DNA from: Candidatus Spongiihabitans sp.
GTDB lineage: Bacteria > Pseudomonadota > Gammaproteobacteria > Arenicellales > Poriferihabitantaceae
Length of the DNA: 64,000 nucleotides
Assembly (NCBI GenBank): GCA_965206355.1
Contig: OZ242212.1
Location: 1,009,540 to 1,073,539, forward strand
Direction: 5' to 3'
This document shows positions 4,548 to 62,990 of the stretch, piece after piece. The stretch's first letter is position 1, and each line of letters begins with the position of its first letter. A program made the position numbers and the translations under genes. The notes under the pieces were generated by a model. That model made no database searches, was not told where the DNA came from, and was given only the letters and a program-made list of their open reading frames with translations.

Positions 4548-4686
4548 GAGACCTTTGCACGAAAGCCATTTCACCTGCATGCTGCGTTAAAAACGTACTC
4601 AATCGGTCATTTATAAGCATAAACTCCCTCATTCCGTGCGTTTTTGCCTGGTCTAAAAGCGAAATCATCTTCCGTGCAAAGGTCTC
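4548..4686 (+). mobile_element. MITE copy 1 (139 bp), flanks not duplicated
   Basis: GAGACCTTTGCACG...CGTGCAAAGGTCTC. Flanks gtatt / aataa differ. Confidence 0.93.
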
Positions 4687-5877: not shown

Positions 5878-6016
5878 GAGACCTTTGCACGAAAGCCCTT
5901 TCACCTGCATGCTGCGTTAAAAACGTACTCAATCGGTCATTTATAAGCATAAACTCCCTCATTCCGTGCGTTTTTGCCTTACCTGAAAGCGAAATCATCT
6001 TCCGTGCAAAGGTCTC
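5878..6016 (+). mobile_element. MITE copy 2 (139 bp), TSD ACAAT
   Basis: TIRs present. acaat at 5873-5877 and 6017-6021. Confidence 0.95.
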
Positions 6017-6416: not shown

Positions 6417-6555
6417 GAGACCTTTGCACGGAAGATGATTTCGCTTTTAGGCCAGGCAAAAACGCACGGAATGAGGGAGTTTATGCTTATAAATGACCGA
6501 TTGAGTACGATTTTAACGTAGCATGGAGGTGAAATGGCTTTCGTGCAAAGGTCTC
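6417..6555 (-). mobile_element. MITE copy 3 (139 bp, reverse), TSD CACTT
   Basis: TIRs present. cactt at 6412-6416 and 6556-6560. Confidence 0.95.
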
Positions 6556-17750: not shown

Positions 17751-18674
17751 ATGACAAACAATCAAATTCAGTGGTATCCGGGGCATATGTATAAAGCCAG
17801 CAAGGAAATAATGGCAATGCTTAGAAAAGTGGATGTCTGTATTGAGTTACTTGATGCGCGGATTCCTTTTAGTAGCGAAAACCCGATGTTAGCATTGTTT
17901 CGCCAGCAGAAACCGTGCCTGAAGGTGCTGTCGAAAAGCGATTTGGCGGATCCGCAACGGACTACCCTGTGGCAGCAGCATTATGAATCTGACCGACAGA
18001 GCAAAGTGCTGGTTGCGGATATGCGAAAATCATCGGCTATTGCCCGAATTCCAGCACTGTGCCGACAACTTTACCATAGAAATGCCGCTTCAAAATCAAC
18101 CCTTACCGTGATGGTGATGGGCATCCCCAATGTCGGCAAGTCAACCCTGATAAACCAGCTTGTTGGCAGGGCCGTCGCCAAAACTGGTGACCAACCGGCA
18201 ATCACAAAAGTCCAGCAGCTTATTGAAATTGAAACGGGGTTTATGCTGCTGGATACGCCGGGTCTAATGTGGCCAAAAGTGGAGAACCGAAATAGTGGTT
18301 ACCGGTTAGCGATAACGGGTGCTATTCGCGATACCGCAATTACTCATGAAGATGTTGCCGTTTTTGCCGCAGATTATTTTATGCAAATGCACCCGCAAAG
18401 GCTGATGGTACGTTATCGTCTGCAGACCTTACCCGAGCAAAGCCAGATACTGCTTGAGCAAGTAGGTAGGAGAAGGGGATGCCTGATTAAAGGGGGCAAG
18501 GTTGATAGCGATTGTGCGGCGAAATTATTTCTGGCAGATGTGCGCGAGGGCAGGTTAGGTAGATTCACGCTGGAAACACCCGAAATGATGCGGCAGGAAC
18601 AAATAGAAGTTGATCAGCTTCGTCAAAAAAGCGCCGAAGTCCGTGGTCGAAAAAGAACAATCCAGACTGGATGA
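17751..18674 (+). CDS. ylqF: Ribosome biogenesis GTPase YlqF/RbgA
   Basis: IQWYPGHM, DARIP, GIPNVGKSTLIN and LLDTPG. Confidence 0.94.
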   Translation: MTNNQIQWYPGHMYKASKEIMAMLRKVDVCIELLDARIPFSSENPMLALFRQQKPCLKVLSKSDLADPQRTTLWQQHYESDRQSKVLVADMRKSSAIARIPALCRQLYHRNAASKSTLTVMVMGIPNVGKSTLINQLVGRAVAKTGDQPAITKVQQLIEIETGFMLLDTPGLMWPKVENRNSGYRLAITGAIRDTAITHEDVAVFAADYFMQMHPQRLMVRYRLQTLPEQSQILLEQVGRRRGCLIKGGKVDSDCAAKLFLADVREGRLGRFTLETPEMMRQEQIEVDQLRQKSAEVRGRKRTIQTG

Positions 18675-18679
18675 TTTAC

Positions 18680-19033
18680 AGGCAAAGCGGGTTAAACTTG
18701 AACAGCAATTGATACACATGAATTCTCGATGACGCTACCGAATCATCTCAATATCGTTTCTACGATGCAAGCGATTCTTATATTTGCGAGGTGCGTTATG
18801 GAAGCGCAACCGCTAATGCCCTCCAGCGAGGGCTTTGGACTCATACAAAAAGCGGTTTAAATTATTTTGATAGCATAACCAATGGATGGGTTGATTATTC
18901 TCACAATCCTATCCTGGTCCAACTATTTTCTCACGCGCTTGTTTCTTCTGATTTCGGCCATAATGAGGCTCTTGCAAAAGTGAAAGATGATATTGTTAGA
19001 CTCAAGCAGGCTTCCCGCTTTAAAGTCACATAA
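18680..19033 (+). pseudogene. 5'-truncated gene remnant coupled to the methyltransferase, possibly a restriction endonuclease
   Basis: Open frame 18722-19033 preceded by in-frame TGA codons. Its TAA stop overlaps the MTase ATG (TAATG). Confidence 0.45.
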
Positions 19034-20316
19034 TGCAAGGGCAAGTTCAAATTTTTCGTGATTGGATTGATGTTCCAAAAACCGAAGGCATCAATTACGC
19101 AGGCTCAAAACTGAAACTGCTTCCACATATTTTTAATCTGTCAAAACAGACCGGAGCAAAAAGCATTTTTGACGGTTTTTCAGGATCCACCAGAGTAAGT
19201 CAATCTTTTGCACAAGCAGGATATCGCGTGGTATCAAATGATATTTCCGAATGGTCAAGAATTTTTGCCACGTGCTATTTGAAAAACTTAAAAAACCCGA
19301 AAATATACCAACCTCTTATTGATCATTTAAATTCGCTTCCTCCGGAAGACGGATGGTTTACTGAGAATTACGGTGGTGATGTTCGCTCTGGAACTTGCCA
19401 CAATGCTATTCAGAAGGATGGAACCAAAAAGCCTTGGCAGAAAAAAAATACAAGGAAACTTGATGCAATCAGGAGAGAGATCGATGCCTTGATGCTTGAT
19501 GACGTTTCCAAAAGTGTGGCATTGACAAGCCTGATTTTAGGGTTGAATGAGATAGACAGTACTCTTGGTCATTTTGTTTCTTATTTAAAAGGAGACCTTT
19601 GCACGAAAGCCATTTCACCTGTATGCTGCGTTAAAAACGTACTCAATCGGTCATTTATAAGCATAAACTCCCTCATTCCGTGCGTTTTTGCCTTGCCTGA
19701 AAGCGAAATCATCTTCCGTGCAAAGGTCTCAAAAGATTGGTCGCCGCGTTCATTCAAAAATTTACAATTGAAAGTGCCGCGGTTGTGGAAAAATGAAATC
19801 GAAAACACGGTGCTGTGTGGTGATGTTTTTAAGGTACTACCCGAAGCCGACGCCGATCTTGCTTATTTTGATCCTCCGTATGGGTCAAACAATGAAAAAA
19901 TGCCACCTTCAAGGGTTCGGTACGCTTCGTATTATCATTTGTGGACGACCATATGTAAAAATGATCATCCCGTGCTATTTGGCAAGTCCCTCCGCAGAAA
20001 AGACACATCCGATAAAGTGGCGGCTTCAGTGTTCGAGGAATTTCGTAGAAGCAAATCAGGACGATTGGTTGTGGTGGAAGCCATAGAGCGTTTGCTGAAG
20101 GAAACTCCTTGCCGATGGATCTTGCTCTCTTACAGTTCCGGTGGACGAGCAACCGCGGAGGAATTAAACGAGGTGATAACGCGTAACGGAGAAATTGTGG
20201 ATAGCGCAAAAATCGAGTATAAAAAAAATGTGATGGCCGCCATGAAATGGACAAATGAGTGGTTGCGGGAATCCAGCGAGCCGAACAAAGAATTCCTGTT
20301 TCTCATCCGAAAATAA
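19033..20316 (+). CDS. DNA adenine methyltransferase (D12 / FokI-NlaIII-like, alpha class) with an in-frame 48-aa MITE insertion
   Basis: NYAGSK, FDGFSGS (motif I) and YFDPPY (motif IV). Insertion at 19592-19735. Confidence 0.88.
   Translation: MQGQVQIFRDWIDVPKTEGINYAGSKLKLLPHIFNLSKQTGAKSIFDGFSGSTRVSQSFAQAGYRVVSNDISEWSRIFATCYLKNLKNPKIYQPLIDHLNSLPPEDGWFTENYGGDVRSGTCHNAIQKDGTKKPWQKKNTRKLDAIRREIDALMLDDVSKSVALTSLILGLNEIDSTLGHFVSYLKGDLCTKAISPVCCVKNVLNRSFISINSLIPCVFALPESEIIFRAKVSKDWSPRSFKNLQLKVPRLWKNEIENTVLCGDVFKVLPEADADLAYFDPPYGSNNEKMPPSRVRYASYYHLWTTICKNDHPVLFGKSLRRKDTSDKVAASVFEEFRRSKSGRLVVVEAIERLLKETPCRWILLSYSSGGRATAEELNEVITRNGEIVDSAKIEYKKNVMAAMKWTNEWLRESSEPNKEFLFLIRK
19592..19730 (+). mobile_element. 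MITE copy 4 (139 bp), TSD AAAAG, in-frame within the MTase
   Basis: TIRs present. aaaag at 19587-19591 and 19731-19735. Confidence 0.96.
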
Positions 20317-20323
20317 AACGAGA

Positions 20324-20545
20324 CTAGACAAGATGGCGAAGCGCGCCGCGCGTATCGAGTAACAGCGCGCTTCTTTTGGCGATTAAATCGTAGTCGAAAG
20401 CATCGTGATCGGTGCAAATAATTACCAAATCTTGCTGCGCCAGCAGTTTGTCCGAAAGCGTCTTGCTATGTAAGTCGAAATGATAGTCTCGCAGGTTGCG
20501 CAGGCGCGCGACATGCGGATTGATGGGTATGGGATGTAAAAGTTG
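20324..20545 (-). pseudogene. C-terminal fragment of a nucleotide-sugar dehydrogenase (WbpA-like)
   Basis: PHV...DLVIICTDHDAFDYDLI...LLDTRG, the end of the UDP-binding domain. Confidence 0.7.
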
Positions 20546-20665
20546 GGTAGCCGTTGTGGAGGTTGGCAGGAGGGGTGCGTGACCGTGTTGCGCTTTACAC
20601 GAATGAGAGAGGTTGTCTGCATCTGGACACAGCGTGTTTGGTTGCCGATGTGGTTGACTCACATA

Positions 20666-20886
20666 CCCGTATTTCTTGATGGAGCTACATCTGTCGTTGG
20701 TGTGTGCTATTCCGAATGCGAAATGGCTGGAATATATTCCTCAACTGGATATAATCACGACCCAAGTGATACGGATTGAATAGGGCTATGCCTACCCATC
20801 AGATGTGCTGGGCATTGGCATTGATCGGGACTGGGATATCATCAATAAGACGGCATGGTTGTCTGAAAAATTAGCGCAGACAGGTG
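20666..20886 (+). pseudogene. C-terminal fragment of a mandelate racemase / acid-sugar dehydratase
   Basis: PYFLMELHLSLVCAIPNAKWLEYIPQLD...IE*GYAYPSDVLGIGID. Confidence 0.7.
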
Positions 20887-21221: not shown

Positions 21222-21969
21222 ATGGCTGATAAAAAAGCACGTCTAATCGGTAAAACCGCACTGATTACTGCCGCCACTCAAGGTATCGGTCGCGCAACTG
21301 CGTATGCCTTTGCCGCTGAAGACGCACAGGTTTTTGCCACGGATATCAATAATGATGAAATGCTAGCGGAACTGGAGGATGAAGGCATGACCGTGTTCAA
21401 GCTGGATGTAACCGGCGACACTGCCATTGTGGCGTTGCTGGCTGAAATTGGTACGCTGGATGTGTTGTTCAACTGTGCTGGCACGGTGCATAATGGGACA
21501 CATTTTGCAATGTGATGAGGCTGATTGGGACTTTTTTAATCTCAATGCCAAACTAATGTATCGGATGACGCTTGCCGTTTTGCCGACGATGCTGGACAAT
21601 GGCGGTGGCTCAATTATCAATATGTCTTCGGCCGCCTCTTCGCTGAAAGGGGTGCCGAACCGCTTTGTCTATTGTGCTTCCAAGTCTGCCGTAATCGGTA
21701 TGAGCAAGGCGGTTGCGGCGGATTATATTACCCAAGGTATCCGTTGTAATGCGATCTGTCCGGGCACCGTGGACAGCCCTTCACTGCATGATCGTCTGCG
21801 GGCTACCGGCGACTACAGGGTTGCGCTGGAGGCATTTATTACCCGTCAGCCCTTGGGGCGTATAGGCAAAGCCGAATAAATTGTTGCGTTGGCAGTGTAT
21901 CTGGCGAGTGATGAAAGTGCTTTTACTACCGGACAAACACATATAATTGATGGCGGCCGGACTGTCTAA
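21222..21969 (+). pseudogene. SDR oxidoreductase (2-keto-3-deoxy-L-fuconate dehydrogenase / BDH2-like) pseudogene
   Basis: TAATQGIG, LFNCAG, YCASK and NAICPGTVDSPSL. Frameshift near 21500 and TAA at 21877. Confidence 0.85.
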
Positions 21970-37589: not shown

Positions 37590-38278
37590 CCACAGATGAG
37601 ATTGGCGGTACCGATTTGAAAGAATACCCGTCCGTACCAAATGTTGCCGTTTCAATGGTCGTGTCATATCGAATCGGAGACCGGCGAATTGCTACATCGG
37701 GAATTTTTCGATACCAGCGGCATCCCGCCTATGCGAGGATTTATTGAATCGTTGTTACAGACAGCTGGTAAAAATAGTCCGATATTCGTTTACAGTGCCT
37801 TTGAGAAAAGTCGTTGATTGATTGTTGATTTATTGCCATTAACAAAACGGTATTATTGAGACCTTTGCACGAAAGCCATTTCATCTGCATGCTGCGTTAA
37901 AATCGTACTCAATCGGTCATTTATAAGCATAAACTCCCTCATTCCGTGCGTTTTTGCCTTGCCTACAAGCGAAATCATCTTCCGTGCAAAGGTCTCTTAT
38001 TATCATTCCGATATGTGTGGATCATGGTCGCTTAAAGCAGTCCTTCCGAGCATTGTCCCTCATTTTGATTATAGTGATCTTGGCGAAATTCAGGATGGCG
38101 GTGCGGCAGAAACCGCTTATCAGGGGTGCATTTATTCCGACACCGTCCACAGCGCAAGCAGTCGCTGACTGCTGACTTACTTGAGTATTGCAAACGTGAT
38201 ACTGAAGCGTTGGTTGTGCTGACGAGATTTCTGTCCACTGCTAAACAAAATAAAGTGCAGGGTTGGAAAACGGAGTGA
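37590..38278 (+). pseudogene. DUF2779-domain protein remnant interrupted by a MITE
   Basis: TRPYQMLPFQWSCH, VYSAFEKS, DLLP, GSWSLKAVLP, IQDGGAA and LLEYCKRDT, with stops and frameshifts. Confidence 0.8.
37858..37996 (+). mobile_element. MITE copy 5 (139 bp), TSD TTATT
   Basis: TIRs present. ttatt at 37853-37857 and 37997-38001. Confidence 0.95.
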
Positions 38279-46449: not shown

Positions 46450-46945
46450 TAACCCACGTTCTAATCCACATTGGCAAATATTCGAGTTGCTTCGGGGTAG
46501 AGTCGGGCAAACTCAACTTTTTTTGCACAAATTCCGTAAGCACCTGTTTCGGGTCATCATAGGCATTTAATATGAGACCTTTGCACGAAAGCCATTACCT
46601 GCATGCTGCGTTAAAATCGTACTCAATCGGTCATTTATAAGCATAAACTCCCTCATTCCGTGCGTTTTTGCCTGGCCTGAAAGCGAAATCATCTTCCGTG
46701 CAAAGGTCTCAATATGTCAAACGCCCGACTCCGGAGCGTAACCACTTCTTGTAAAACCGCATTGTATAAAATCAGCTTGCTACGGAAGTAGTAATGCACA
46801 TTTGCCTTTGGCATACCCGCCTTATCAGCAATTCTTTGCATCCGTGCCATCATAATCGTATTTTTTAAACTCCTGTTCGGCAGCTTTCAGGATAGCTCGC
46901 TGTTTTTCTACTCTGATTGTTGAAAATTGGCTAGCCTGTTCTATC
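46450..46945 (-). pseudogene. TetR/RutR-like regulator pseudogene with frameshifts and a MITE insertion
   Basis: AILKAAEQEF / MQRIADKAGMPKANVHYYFRSK..LY / DDP..L.EF.. / YPEATRIFAN, read in shifting frames. Confidence 0.8.
46574..46710 (+). mobile_element. MITE copy 6 (137 bp, 2-bp deletion), TSD AATAT
   Basis: TIRs present. aatat at 46569-46573 and 46711-46715. Confidence 0.95.
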
Positions 46946-48422: not shown

Positions 48423-48561
48423 GAGACCTTTGCACGAAAGCCATTTCACCTGCATGCTGCGTTAAAAACGTACTCAATCGGTCATTTATAAGCATAAACT
48501 CCCTCATTCCGTGCGTTTTTGCCTTGCCTGAAAGCGAAATCATCTTCCGTGCAAAGGTCTC
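48423..48561 (+). mobile_element. MITE copy 7 (139 bp), TSD ATAAT, supplies the addA stop codon
   Basis: TIRs present. ataat at 48418-48422 and 48562-48566. Confidence 0.95.
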
Positions 48562-58207: not shown

Positions 58208-58369
58208 GAGACCTTTGCACGGAAGATGATTTCGCTTTTAGGCCAGGCAAAAACGCACGGAATGAGGGAGTTTATGCTTATAAATGACCGATTGAGTACG
58301 ATTTTACCAACAGTAGGCGCTTTTAGGCGACGCAGCATGCAGGTGAAATGGCTTTCGTGCAAAGGTCTC
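58208..58369 (-). mobile_element. MITE copy 8 (162-bp long variant, reverse), TSD AATAC
   Basis: TIRs present. aatac at 58203-58207 and 58370-58374. Extra 23 bp at 58307-58329. Confidence 0.95.
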
Positions 58370-62851: not shown

Positions 62852-62990
62852 GAGACCTTTGCACGAAAGCCATTTCACCTGCATACTGCGTTAAAATCGT
62901 ACTCAATCGGTCATTTATAAGCATAAACTCCCTCATTCCGTGCGTTTTTGCCTTGCCTGAAAGCGAAATCATCTTCCGTGCAAAGGTCTC
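62852..62990 (+). mobile_element. MITE copy 9 (139 bp), TSD ATATA
   Basis: TIRs present. atata at 62847-62851 and 62991-62995. Confidence 0.95.

What the first reader, a model, noticed from the sequence alone, without database searches (positions are those of the whole stretch)
19587..19735. MITE inserted in-frame inside a DNA methyltransferase, adding a 48-aa peptide
Seen: removing the element and one AAAAG restores ...SYLK-DWSPRS.... With the element the ORF stays open and reads SYLK-GDLCTKAISPVCCVKNVLNRSFISINSLIPCVFALPESEIIFRAKVSK-DWSPRS. The insert lies between motif I (FDGFSGS) and motif IV (DPPY), in the variable target-recognition region of an alpha-class MTase. The rest of the gene has no lesions. 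Knowledge: in-frame translated palindromic repeats are known from Rickettsia (RPEs) and Wolbachia and are rarely reported elsewhere. Inference: this is a selfish element that creates new protein sequence, and it may alter, abolish or (by excision) switch methylation.
Basis: partly seen in the sequence, partly recalled or inferred. Interest (0 to 1): 0.85.

Follow-up and report, generated by a model that had tools for sequence, protein, structure and literature searches.

The report
MITE insertion in decaying methylase gene
A small mobile DNA element has very recently jumped into a DNA methylase gene without breaking its reading frame, but the partner restriction enzyme gene next door is already deleted, so this looks like the ordinary decay of a restriction-modification system and not the birth of a new protein.

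Summary
Window 19592-19730 is a 139-bp MITE with 18-bp terminal inverted repeats, flanked by a 5-bp duplication (AAAAG). It sits inside a D12-class adenine methyltransferase gene (19033-20316), which stays open and gains 48 residues. The genome holds 289 full-length copies, and 229 of 284 have perfect 5-bp duplications.

The open frame has a simple explanation. Element plus duplication is 144 nt (48 codons), and 2 of the element's 6 frames lack stops, so about one intragenic hit in three reads through.

The insertion is strain-specific. 0 of 117 homologues have it. A sister genome encodes the same protein, 100% identical, without it. Contigs from 4 of 4 other runs join 19586 to 19731.

The insert splits an invariant block (GH..YL | W..RS, 118 of 118), not a variable region.

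The upstream partner gene, a type II restriction enzyme, survives only as its last 93 codons. The sister genome has all 282.

My reading is a recent, probably inactivating hit in a restriction-modification system that is being dismantled. A functional chimera or an excision switch is not excluded, but nothing supports either. In-frame intragenic MITEs are already described. Interest is modest.

The parts
19033..20316 (+). D12-class (alpha-type) N6-adenine DNA methyltransferase gene, 427 codons including the 48-codon insert; the M gene of a type II R-M cassette
   Evidence: ORF. Pfam PF02086 at E 4.5e-19. PADLOC MTase_II PDLC03342 at E 2.9e-157, matched in two stretches. Foldseek best hits are EcoDam, DpnM and T4Dam. 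No paralogue in the genome.
19592..19730 (+). 139-bp MITE, one of 289 full-length copies in the genome; read in element frame +2 as DLCTKAISP...RAKV
   Evidence: It differs from the 201-copy consensus at 2 positions, 19622 and 19637. The RNA folds as a long hairpin, -42.6 kcal/mol, z -6.1, with 0 of 200 shuffles as stable.
19592..19609 (+). Left terminal inverted repeat
   Evidence: The same 17-nt terminus begins the IS5-family element at C1:2037577.
19713..19730 (+). Right terminal inverted repeat
19587..19591 (.). Target-site duplication AAAAG, left copy
   Evidence: 229 of 284 copies have perfect 5-bp duplications. The joints in other runs have 5 ambiguous letters.
19731..19735 (.). Target-site duplication AAAAG, right copy
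19168..19188 (+). Motif I (FDGFSGS), AdoMet-binding FxGxG
   Evidence: The motif name is from established MTase nomenclature (recalled).
19870..19881 (+). Motif IV (DPPY), catalytic
   Evidence: D280, P281, P282 and Y283 are invariant in 118 sequences.
18749..19033 (+). Remnant of the cognate type II restriction endonuclease gene: the last 93 codons plus stop, with the stop overlapping the M start codon
   Evidence: 100% identical (93 of 93) to residues 190-282 of P0241. PADLOC REase_II PDLC03568, profile positions 190-278 of 281. In-frame stops lie upstream.
18750..18751 (.). Deletion junction. Other strains carry about 638 further bases here, consistent with 189 codons of R plus 71 nt upstream (an inference; the bases themselves were not read)
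   Evidence: table 8. The X5 contig has 638 letters between its pieces ending and starting at 18751. In all 4 runs the contig's match to the window begins exactly at 18751 while the record continues upstream.

Best explanation
A 139-bp non-autonomous transposable element (MITE), derived from an IS5-family insertion sequence, transposed very recently into the methyltransferase gene of a two-gene type II restriction-modification cassette. The insertion occurred in this strain only.

The element plus its 5-bp target duplication is 144 nt, so every insertion of this subfamily preserves the downstream frame. It landed in one of the two element frames (of six) that have no stop codon. The gene therefore still reads as one ORF with 48 extra residues.

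The insert splits an invariant sequence block that, by a weak alignment to DpnM, corresponds to the end of the Dam-family DNA-recognition hairpin motif. The enzyme is therefore most likely inactive or crippled (inferred).

This is tolerated because the cognate restriction endonuclease gene directly upstream has lost its first 189 codons and its upstream region in the same strain (shown). With no restriction activity, the methylase is no longer needed for self-protection.

The order of the two lesions is not resolved. Either R was deleted first and M then drifted, or the MITE hit on M made loss of R advantageous. In both orders the locus is an R-M system being dismantled, not a selected new protein.
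For: MITE identity:
- TIRs.
- 289 full-length copies, and 229 of 284 with a perfect 5-bp duplication.
- A parent-type IS5-family transposase (NF033581, 248.9 bits against a cut-off of 140) whose left end shares the 17-nt terminus.
- A relic keeps the right terminus with 2 mismatches.
- A complete 1.27-kb relative in a congeneric genome has matching termini.

Recency and strain specificity:
- P0002 is 100% identical outside the insert.
- 0 of 117 homologues carry the insert.
- Contigs of 4 of 4 runs from 4 studies join 19586 to 19731, skipping 144 nt with 5 ambiguous letters.

Frame arithmetic:
- 2 of 6 frames are open.
- 200 of 201 copies are open in frame +2 and 159 of 201 in frame -0.

Genes are otherwise avoided:
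- After in-silico excision, only 3 of 233 copies lie in an ORF with at least 80 codons on each side, against 1458 of 3000 random positions.
- One of the 3 is really intergenic, between xseA and der.
- That leaves the MTase and the element's own parent transposase.

R is dead:
- The window keeps only 93 codons, 100% identical to residues 190-282 of P0241.
- P0241 is a full-length REase_II (profile 2-278 of 281) and lies on the same 2,468,911-nt contig as the uninterrupted M, P0002.
- Other strains have 638 extra letters at 18751.

Disruptive position:
- G179, H180, Y184, L185 | W236, R239, S240 are invariant in 118 of 118 sequences.
- The AF2 model has pLDDT 22-27 across the insert and 40 for residues 181-190, against 92-98 in much of the core (several other blocks are lower).
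- The profile aligns this block to DpnM 131-198 (E 0.014).
Against: - The AF2 model keeps a confident Dam-like core (pTM 0.79) with the insert looped out as a disordered excursion. Residual or full activity is therefore not excluded.
- This MTase family often occurs without this R. Of 80 homologous loci with room upstream, 41 have the R gene and 39 do not. An orphan role for M is plausible, and loss of R does not by itself prove M is dispensable.
- All differences between the window's M gene and the contigs of other strains are synonymous: 5 of 5, plus 1 of 1 in the R remnant. M was therefore under purifying selection in the species until recently.
- The alignment to DpnM is weak (domain E 0.7).
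- No expression, methylome or proteome data were available.
- Only assembled contigs of other strains were laid, not reads of the window's own population.
Confidence: 0.7

Rival explanations
1. The chimeric 427-aa methyltransferase is still active. The 48 residues loop out of the fold, and the enzyme persists as an orphan methylase, with the same or an altered specificity or efficiency. The MITE would then have created new protein sequence, as proposed for Rickettsia palindromic elements.
For: - The ORF is intact and both catalytic motifs are present.
- AF2 keeps the Dam-like core at pTM 0.79 with the insert disordered.
- 39 of 80 homologous loci lack the R partner, so orphan forms of this family are common.
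- 5 of 5 substitutions between strains are synonymous.
Against: - The insert splits a block that is invariant in 118 of 118 sequences.
- 0 of 117 homologues tolerate any residue there.
- The insert is hydrophobic, has 5 Cys, and has pLDDT 22-27.
- The insertion is too recent for any signature of retention.
- R was lost in the same strain, as expected if protection failed or became unnecessary.
Confidence: 0.2
2. The insertion is a reversible ON/OFF switch. Precise excision between the two AAAAG copies restores the 379-aa gene, giving phase-variable methylation.
For: - Removing the element and one AAAAG restores the exact sister allele.
- The element forms a long hairpin (-42.6 kcal/mol). From general knowledge (recalled), such hairpins favour slippage between flanking direct repeats.
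Against: - The empty alleles seen in 4 of 4 runs carry four substitutions that differ from the window (18853, 19185, 19779, 19839). They also carry the undeleted R region, so they are other strains, not revertants.
- The only parent transposase in the genome is itself interrupted by a MITE and has lost its right end.
- The duplication is only 5 bp.
- With R deleted, switching M has no restriction-related consequence.
- There are no simple-sequence repeats or invertible segments, as known phase-variable methylases have (recalled).
Confidence: 0.03
3. Assembly artefact: a MITE copy was placed wrongly into the gene.
For: The element is a 289-copy repeat, and repeats can misassemble. The reads behind the window were not examined.
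Against: - A perfect 5-bp duplication of the target, matching the family's rule, flanks the copy.
- The copy has a nearly private base at 19622: nearly all MITE-containing contig depth in the other runs reads C there and the own-genome consensus is C.
- The genome is in 3 contigs with a 2.36-Mb chromosome.
- The joint in other strains is exact to the base.
Confidence: 0.02

Closest known systems
Rickettsia palindromic elements (RPEs; Ogata et al. 2000, as summarised in PMC10969869 and PMC3184786, passages read)
   Same: A palindromic repeat of about 140-150 bp found inside a protein-coding gene, in frame, adding roughly 45-50 residues without a stop.
   Different: - RPEs lie inside genes often: 44 insertions in R. 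conorii genes according to the review. Here only 2 of 233 copies are truly intragenic, and one of those is the element's own transposase.
- This element has clear TIRs, a 5-bp duplication and an identifiable IS5-family parent.
- The insertion is polymorphic between near-identical strains, not ancient and conserved.
- It splits an invariant motif and does not sit in a tolerant surface region.
IS-derived (type I) bacterial MITEs with empty and filled sites between relatives, e.g. Nezha of Anabaena/Nostoc and the MITEs of Anabaena sp. 90 (PMC3184786 and PMC3542288, passages read)
   Same: TIRs shared with an IS, target duplication, high copy number, mostly intergenic location, and occasional hits in genes. 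In Anabaena sp. 90, 15 of 147 MITEs lie in disrupted ORFs, and R-M genes are often pseudogenes.
   Different: A different sequence family and host lineage, and a different parent IS (NF033581 type, 5-bp AT-rich duplication). Here the hit leaves the ORF open because element plus duplication is a multiple of three.
Betaproteobacterial repeat element (BRE) and pneumococcal BOX/RUP elements inside genes (Hot et al. 2011 and Croucher et al. 2011, as cited in PMC3184786, passages read)
   Same: [quoted passage not shown]
   Different: No sequence relation was tested. Those reports concern several genes per genome. Here there is one non-transposon gene, and its system partner is deleted.
Decay of type II R-M systems by loss of the endonuclease, leaving solitary methylases (general knowledge; Oliveira et al. 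2014, PMC4176335, seen in a search listing only)
   Same: R is truncated while M remains as an ORF. R and M are adjacent, and R's stop codon overlaps M's start codon by one base.
   Different: Here M is also hit, by a MITE, within the same short evolutionary interval. Both genes remain 100% identical in protein to an intact sister system.

Membership tests
MITE (IS-derived, type I) | Terminal inverted repeats | tested here: met
   18-nt arms, 94% complementary.
MITE (IS-derived, type I) | Target-site duplication of fixed length | tested here: met
   229 of 284 copies have a perfect 5-bp duplication, against 3 of 284 for 4 bp and 3 of 284 for 6 bp. This copy has AAAAG on both sides.
MITE (IS-derived, type I) | Small, multi-copy, no transposase gene | tested here: met
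   139 bp; 289 full-length copies; the longest frames are 45-46 codons with no family match.
MITE (IS-derived, type I) | Termini shared with an autonomous IS | tested here: met
   - The left end of the IS5-family element at C1:2037577 shares 17 nt with the MITE.
- The transposase matches NF033581 at 248.9 bits.
- A relic keeps the right terminus with 2 mismatches.
- A 1.27-kb relative in G005 has both termini.
- No intact copy exists in this genome.
MITE (IS-derived, type I) | Empty site in relatives | tested here: met
   P0002 and P0003 lack the insert. 4 of 4 runs have a contig that skips exactly 144 nt.
RPE-like translated palindromic elements | Frequent in-frame location inside many unrelated genes | tested here: not met
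   3 of 233 copies by the ORF criterion, and 2 after inspection. A further read-through case lies in a degraded AMP-ligase fragment.
RPE-like translated palindromic elements | Insert placed where the host protein's fold tolerates it | tested here: inconclusive
   The AF2 core is retained and the insert is disordered. However, the site is an invariant block with no indels in 117 homologues.
RPE-like translated palindromic elements | Element-encoded peptide is expressed as part of the protein | not testable with these tools
   No RNA holder is listed among the runs, and no proteome is available.
D12-class (alpha) N6-adenine DNA methyltransferase | Pfam PF02086 match; motif I (FxGxG) before motif IV (DPPY); Dam-like fold | tested here: met
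   Foldseek hits: EcoDam 4rtl_A at E 5.1e-5, DpnM 2dpm at 6.0e-5, T4Dam 1yf3_A at 2.1e-3.
Type II restriction-modification system | Adjacent cognate endonuclease gene | tested here: met
   Present only as a remnant: 93 codons matching PADLOC REase_II profile positions 190-278 of 281. It is full length in the sister genome. The R family lies next to M in 41 of 80 loci.
Phase-variable methyltransferase (phasevarion-type switch) | Reversible ON and OFF alleles within one strain's population through a dedicated hypermutable mechanism | not tested
   Reads of the window's own population were not available. The empty alleles seen belong to other strains, which differ at four substitutions and in the R region.

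The most novel reading that the evidence does not exclude
This MITE subfamily is built to be tolerated inside genes: element plus duplication is 48 codons, and two frames are stop-free in 200 and 159 of 201 copies. On this reading the 427-aa methylase is a working chimera. Its recognition region has been remodelled by a mobile element, so DNA specificity changes or methylation can be toggled by excision. That would make it an RPE-like 'protein-writing' repeat in a symbiont-like gammaproteobacterium (that label comes from earlier notes of this scan and was not tested here), acting on an epigenetic enzyme.
Probability: 0.07. Interest if true: 0.7.

Novelty: new member of a known kind. Interest (0 to 1): 0.3.

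Why it matters
The locus is a clean, dated snapshot of how a restriction-modification cassette is taken apart. Between strains whose R and M proteins are otherwise 100% identical, one strain has lost the front of R and has taken a MITE into M.

It also shows why an 'in-frame, lesion-free' mobile-element insertion should not be read as evidence of function. Here the frame is preserved by the element's length, and the absence of lesions reflects recency.

The MITE family itself may be useful as a strain marker, with about 290 copies, roughly one per 8 kb. It also illustrates a repeat burst whose only parent transposase has been hit by its own derivative.

If the chimeric enzyme were active, it would be a rare documented case outside Rickettsia of a MITE remodelling a working enzyme. 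Nothing yet supports that.

Tried and rejected
- RNA evidence: the look-up of sequencing runs listed no RNA holder, so nothing can be said on expression.
- Occupied allele in other samples: no listed piece bridges the gene-MITE junction. However, table 8 is cut (2550 rows not shown) and contigs break at repeats, so absence is not shown.
- Sequence search of the PDB with the family profile: 0 hits at E 0.01 with 12 sequences. With 118 sequences there was only a weak DpnM hit.
- First AF2 run with a 12-sequence alignment: too poor to use (pLDDT 48.7). It was replaced by the 118-sequence run.
- Exact search of JGI metagenome contigs for the 30 nt left of the insertion: 0 matches.
- Rfam: only a chance hit below threshold (ciliate telomerase RNA, 21.1 bits against a gathering score of 52).
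- Plasmid collection: no match to the element.
- Pfam and NCBIfam have no model for the R protein. PADLOC does.
- The copy at C1:2178557, flagged as intragenic by the ORF criterion, was rejected after inspection. It lies between the convergent genes xseA and der.
- Read-through ORFs at L031, L033 and L035 were judged spurious or N-terminal over-extensions: L031 has no family match, and L033 and L035 were judged from their translations only.
- An excess of stop-free frames in the element was considered as a sign of selection. 338 of 5000 shuffles of the consensus have 2 or more open frames, so the evidence is weak and was not pursued.
- Consensus scans: no terminator-like site in 18600-20500, and no + strand promoter-like site upstream of M (the only + strand site lies downstream, at 20394-20422; four lie on the - strand). 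These scans are not informative.
- Supplementary tables of the papers read could not be consulted.

Full report
**The observation**

The window has an ORF at 19033..20316 (+) of 427 codons. It matches Pfam PF02086, the D12 class of N6-adenine DNA methyltransferases, at E 4.5e-19, and PADLOC MTase_II PDLC03342. Inside it, 19592-19609 and 19713-19730 are 18-nt inverted repeats, 94% complementary. AAAAG occurs immediately on both sides, at 19587-19591 and 19731-19735.

Aligned to 11 homologues, the protein has one block of 48 extra residues. The closest homologue, P0002 (379 aa), is 100% identical elsewhere, and P0003 is 99% identical. In a 118-sequence alignment, 0 of 117 other sequences have a residue in any of the 48 insert columns. 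Motif I (FDGFSGS) and motif IV (DPPY) lie on either side of the insert.

**What the element is**

blastn of the 139-bp element against the window's own genome (2.39 Mb, 3 contigs) gives 340 HSPs, all on the chromosome. Of these, 289 are full length: 201 of exactly 139 bp and 58 of 162 bp, a second subfamily about 80-85% identical.

Of the 284 copies aligned end to end, 229 are flanked by a perfect 5-bp direct repeat. The figures are 3 of 284 for 4 bp and 3 of 284 for 6 bp. The duplicated pentamers are AT-rich. The RNA or DNA strand folds into one long hairpin: -42.6 kcal/mol, z -6.1, with 0 of 200 shuffles as stable. This is a textbook MITE.

A parent-type element can be named. At C1:2037577, a sequence beginning with the same 17 nt as the MITE precedes a transposase ORF. 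That ORF matches NCBIfam NF033581 (IS5 family) at 248.9 bits against a cut-off of 140, and Pfam DUF772 plus DDE_Tnp_1. It is the only full copy of this transposase in the genome. It is itself interrupted in frame by a MITE copy, and its right end is replaced by another repeated element. A relic at C1:914164-914479 keeps the C-terminal coding part and a right terminus with 2 mismatches to the MITE terminus.

Congeneric genomes hold related transposases at 51-57% identity, in 3 of 6 genomes. One complete 1.27-kb copy has both matching termini. Diverged relatives of the MITE, 75-81% identical, occur in 3 of 6 congeneric genomes and in 0 of 24 genomes from other genera searched. Neither Rfam nor the plasmid collection holds the element.

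**Why the frame stays open**

Element plus duplication is 139+5 = 144 nt, or 48 codons, so this subfamily never shifts the downstream frame. Two of the six element frames have no stop codon. They are open in 200 and 159 of the 201 copies of 139 bp. An insertion into a gene therefore reads through about one time in three, and the open ORF needs no special explanation. Two or more open frames occur in 338 of 5000 shuffles of the consensus, which is not remarkable.

**How unusual an intragenic copy is in this genome**

I removed each copy and one duplication in silico and looked for a stop-free frame with at least 80 codons on each side. This found such a frame for 3 of 233 copies, against 1458 of 3000 random positions. 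One of the three lies between the convergent genes xseA and der, and its ORF is spurious. The two real cases are this methylase and the element's own parent transposase. A further read-through copy sits in a degraded fragment of an AMP-dependent ligase. Insertions in genes are therefore strongly avoided or purged, and those that persist are in dispensable genes.

**The insertion is recent and strain-specific**

Contigs from four public runs, belonging to four studies, were laid on 18700-20700. In 4 of 4 runs a contig joins 19586 to 19731, skipping exactly 144 nt with 5 ambiguous letters, which is the empty site.

These contigs differ from the window at a few positions. All five differences in the M gene, and the one in the R remnant, are synonymous. 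They therefore come from other strains, and the gene was under purifying selection in the species until recently. The element itself is at very high summed depth in those runs, so the family is present there too. Whether any run holds the occupied allele cannot be said, because the piece table is cut and contigs break at repeats.

**Where the insert falls in the protein**

It is not variable. G179, H180, Y184 and L185 before the insert, and W236, R239 and S240 after it, are invariant in 118 of 118 sequences. S183 and S237 are nearly invariant.

With the deep alignment, AF2 gives a usable model (mean pLDDT 75.0, pTM 0.79). The confident core is most like EcoDam, DpnM and T4Dam. Residues 181-231 fall below pLDDT 50 (22-27 in the insert), and the helix just before the insert drops to about 40.

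A profile search of PDB sequences aligns profile positions 170-236 to DpnM residues 131-198 at E 0.014. This places the split block opposite the motif '...FNVPYGRY...'. From my recollection of the Dam structures, that motif ends the DNA-recognition hairpin. The alignment is weak and that mapping is recalled, not tested. Taken together, an inactivating or strongly perturbing effect is the more likely outcome, but it is not shown.

**The surroundings decide the reading**

Immediately upstream, with its stop codon overlapping the M start codon, is an 80-codon ORF (18791..19033). Read from 18749, it gives 93 residues that are 100% identical to residues 190-282 of P0241. P0241 is a 282-aa protein that matches PADLOC REase_II PDLC03568 over profile positions 2-278 of 281. 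It is encoded on the same 2,468,911-nt contig as P0002, the uninterrupted methylase. Upstream of 18749 the window frame is closed by stops.

In one search, the contigs of all four runs stop matching the window exactly at 18751 while the records continue. In X5, 638 extra letters lie between the two pieces that meet at 18751. That length fits 189 codons plus 71 nt of upstream sequence.

So the sister genome has an intact R-M pair. The window's strain has lost the first two thirds of R and its upstream region, and it also carries the MITE in M. There is no paralogue of M in the genome.

**Interpretation**

The locus is a type II restriction-modification cassette being dismantled. A cell with active R cannot survive loss of M. 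So either R was deleted first and M then became free to take a hit, or the MITE hit weakened protection and favoured the loss of R. I cannot order the two events. Both predict that the interrupted M is no longer needed for protection.

**Evidence on the other side**

- Of 80 homologous loci with enough upstream DNA, 41 have this R gene and 39 do not. The family therefore often lives as a solitary methylase and could have a role without R.
- The predicted core fold survives the insert.
- Past selection on the gene was purifying.

I therefore give 0.7 to a neutral or inactivating hit in a decaying system. I give 0.2 to a still-active chimera, 0.03 to a reversible switch and 0.02 to an assembly error.

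**Comparison with what is known**

Two reviews were read in passages. [quoted passage not shown] PMC3184786 lists RPE, BRE and BOX/RUP cases inside genes. The Anabaena sp. 90 genome paper (PMC3542288, passages) reports 15 of 147 MITEs in disrupted ORFs and many R-M pseudogenes.

Full-text searches were run for MITEs in sponge symbionts and for MITEs interrupting DNA methyltransferase or R-M genes. In the listings and the passages I read, they returned no description of this element or of a MITE reading through a methylase.

The case is a new member of a known kind. It is a previously undescribed MITE family, as far as these searches show, doing something MITEs are known to do.

**Context from earlier notes of this scan**

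Earlier notes call this genome a sponge-symbiont-like gammaproteobacterium, and they report IS1595 copies and presence/absence differences of modules between near-identical strains. I did not test those labels. They are consistent with the repeat burst, the neighbouring pseudogenes and the strain-level differences seen here.

Noticed in passing
G000:C1:2037577-2038824 (locus L034, about 1078-2325): The only full copy of the MITE's parent-type IS5-family transposase in the genome is itself interrupted in frame by a MITE copy. It reads through in the same element frame as the methylase. Its right end is replaced by another repeat with about 20 copies. The genome therefore seems to hold no intact mobilising transposase for its roughly 290 MITEs.
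   Followed up: partly
window 20518 onward (about 200 nt downstream of the M stop codon): Contigs from all four other runs stop matching the window at 20518, and in X1 and X2 they carry a different continuation (loose ends). The window ORF 20324..20662 (-) looks like the C-terminal end of a nucleotide-sugar dehydrogenase with a junk N-terminus, so a third strain-specific rearrangement truncates the neighbouring gene. Low-depth contigs in X2 and X3 do bridge 20518 (28.5 against 1009, and 999.7 against 7081), which suggests a window-like minor strain there.
   Followed up: partly
window 21222-21879: A short-chain dehydrogenase appears split into two overlapping ORFs (21222..21515 and 21427..21879, both +), as if by a frameshift. 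It is probably a pseudogene.
   Followed up: no
window 4548-4686, 5878-6016, 6417-6555, 37858-37996, 46574-46710, 48423-48561, 58208-58369, 62852-62990: Eight further copies of the same MITE family lie in the window. Seven belong to the roughly 139-bp subfamily (95.7-99.3% identical), and one belongs to the 162-bp subfamily (83%).
   Followed up: partly
G000:C1:1244781-1245476 (locus L032 1282-1977): A fragment of an AMP-dependent synthetase/ligase reads through a MITE copy in frame. It has lost about 60 profile positions of the AMP-binding domain and the first 32 of the C-terminal domain, so it is a degraded gene.
   Followed up: partly
loci L048-L127 (homologues of the methylase in many phyla): The M gene and its 282-aa R partner occur in MAGs labelled with many different phyla (Dehalococcoidia, Planctomycetota, Verrucomicrobiota, Poribacteria, Latescibacterota and others) at 54-70% identity. 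R lies next to M in 41 of 80 loci. The cassette looks widely transferred, and the R family has no Pfam or NCBIfam model.
   Followed up: partly
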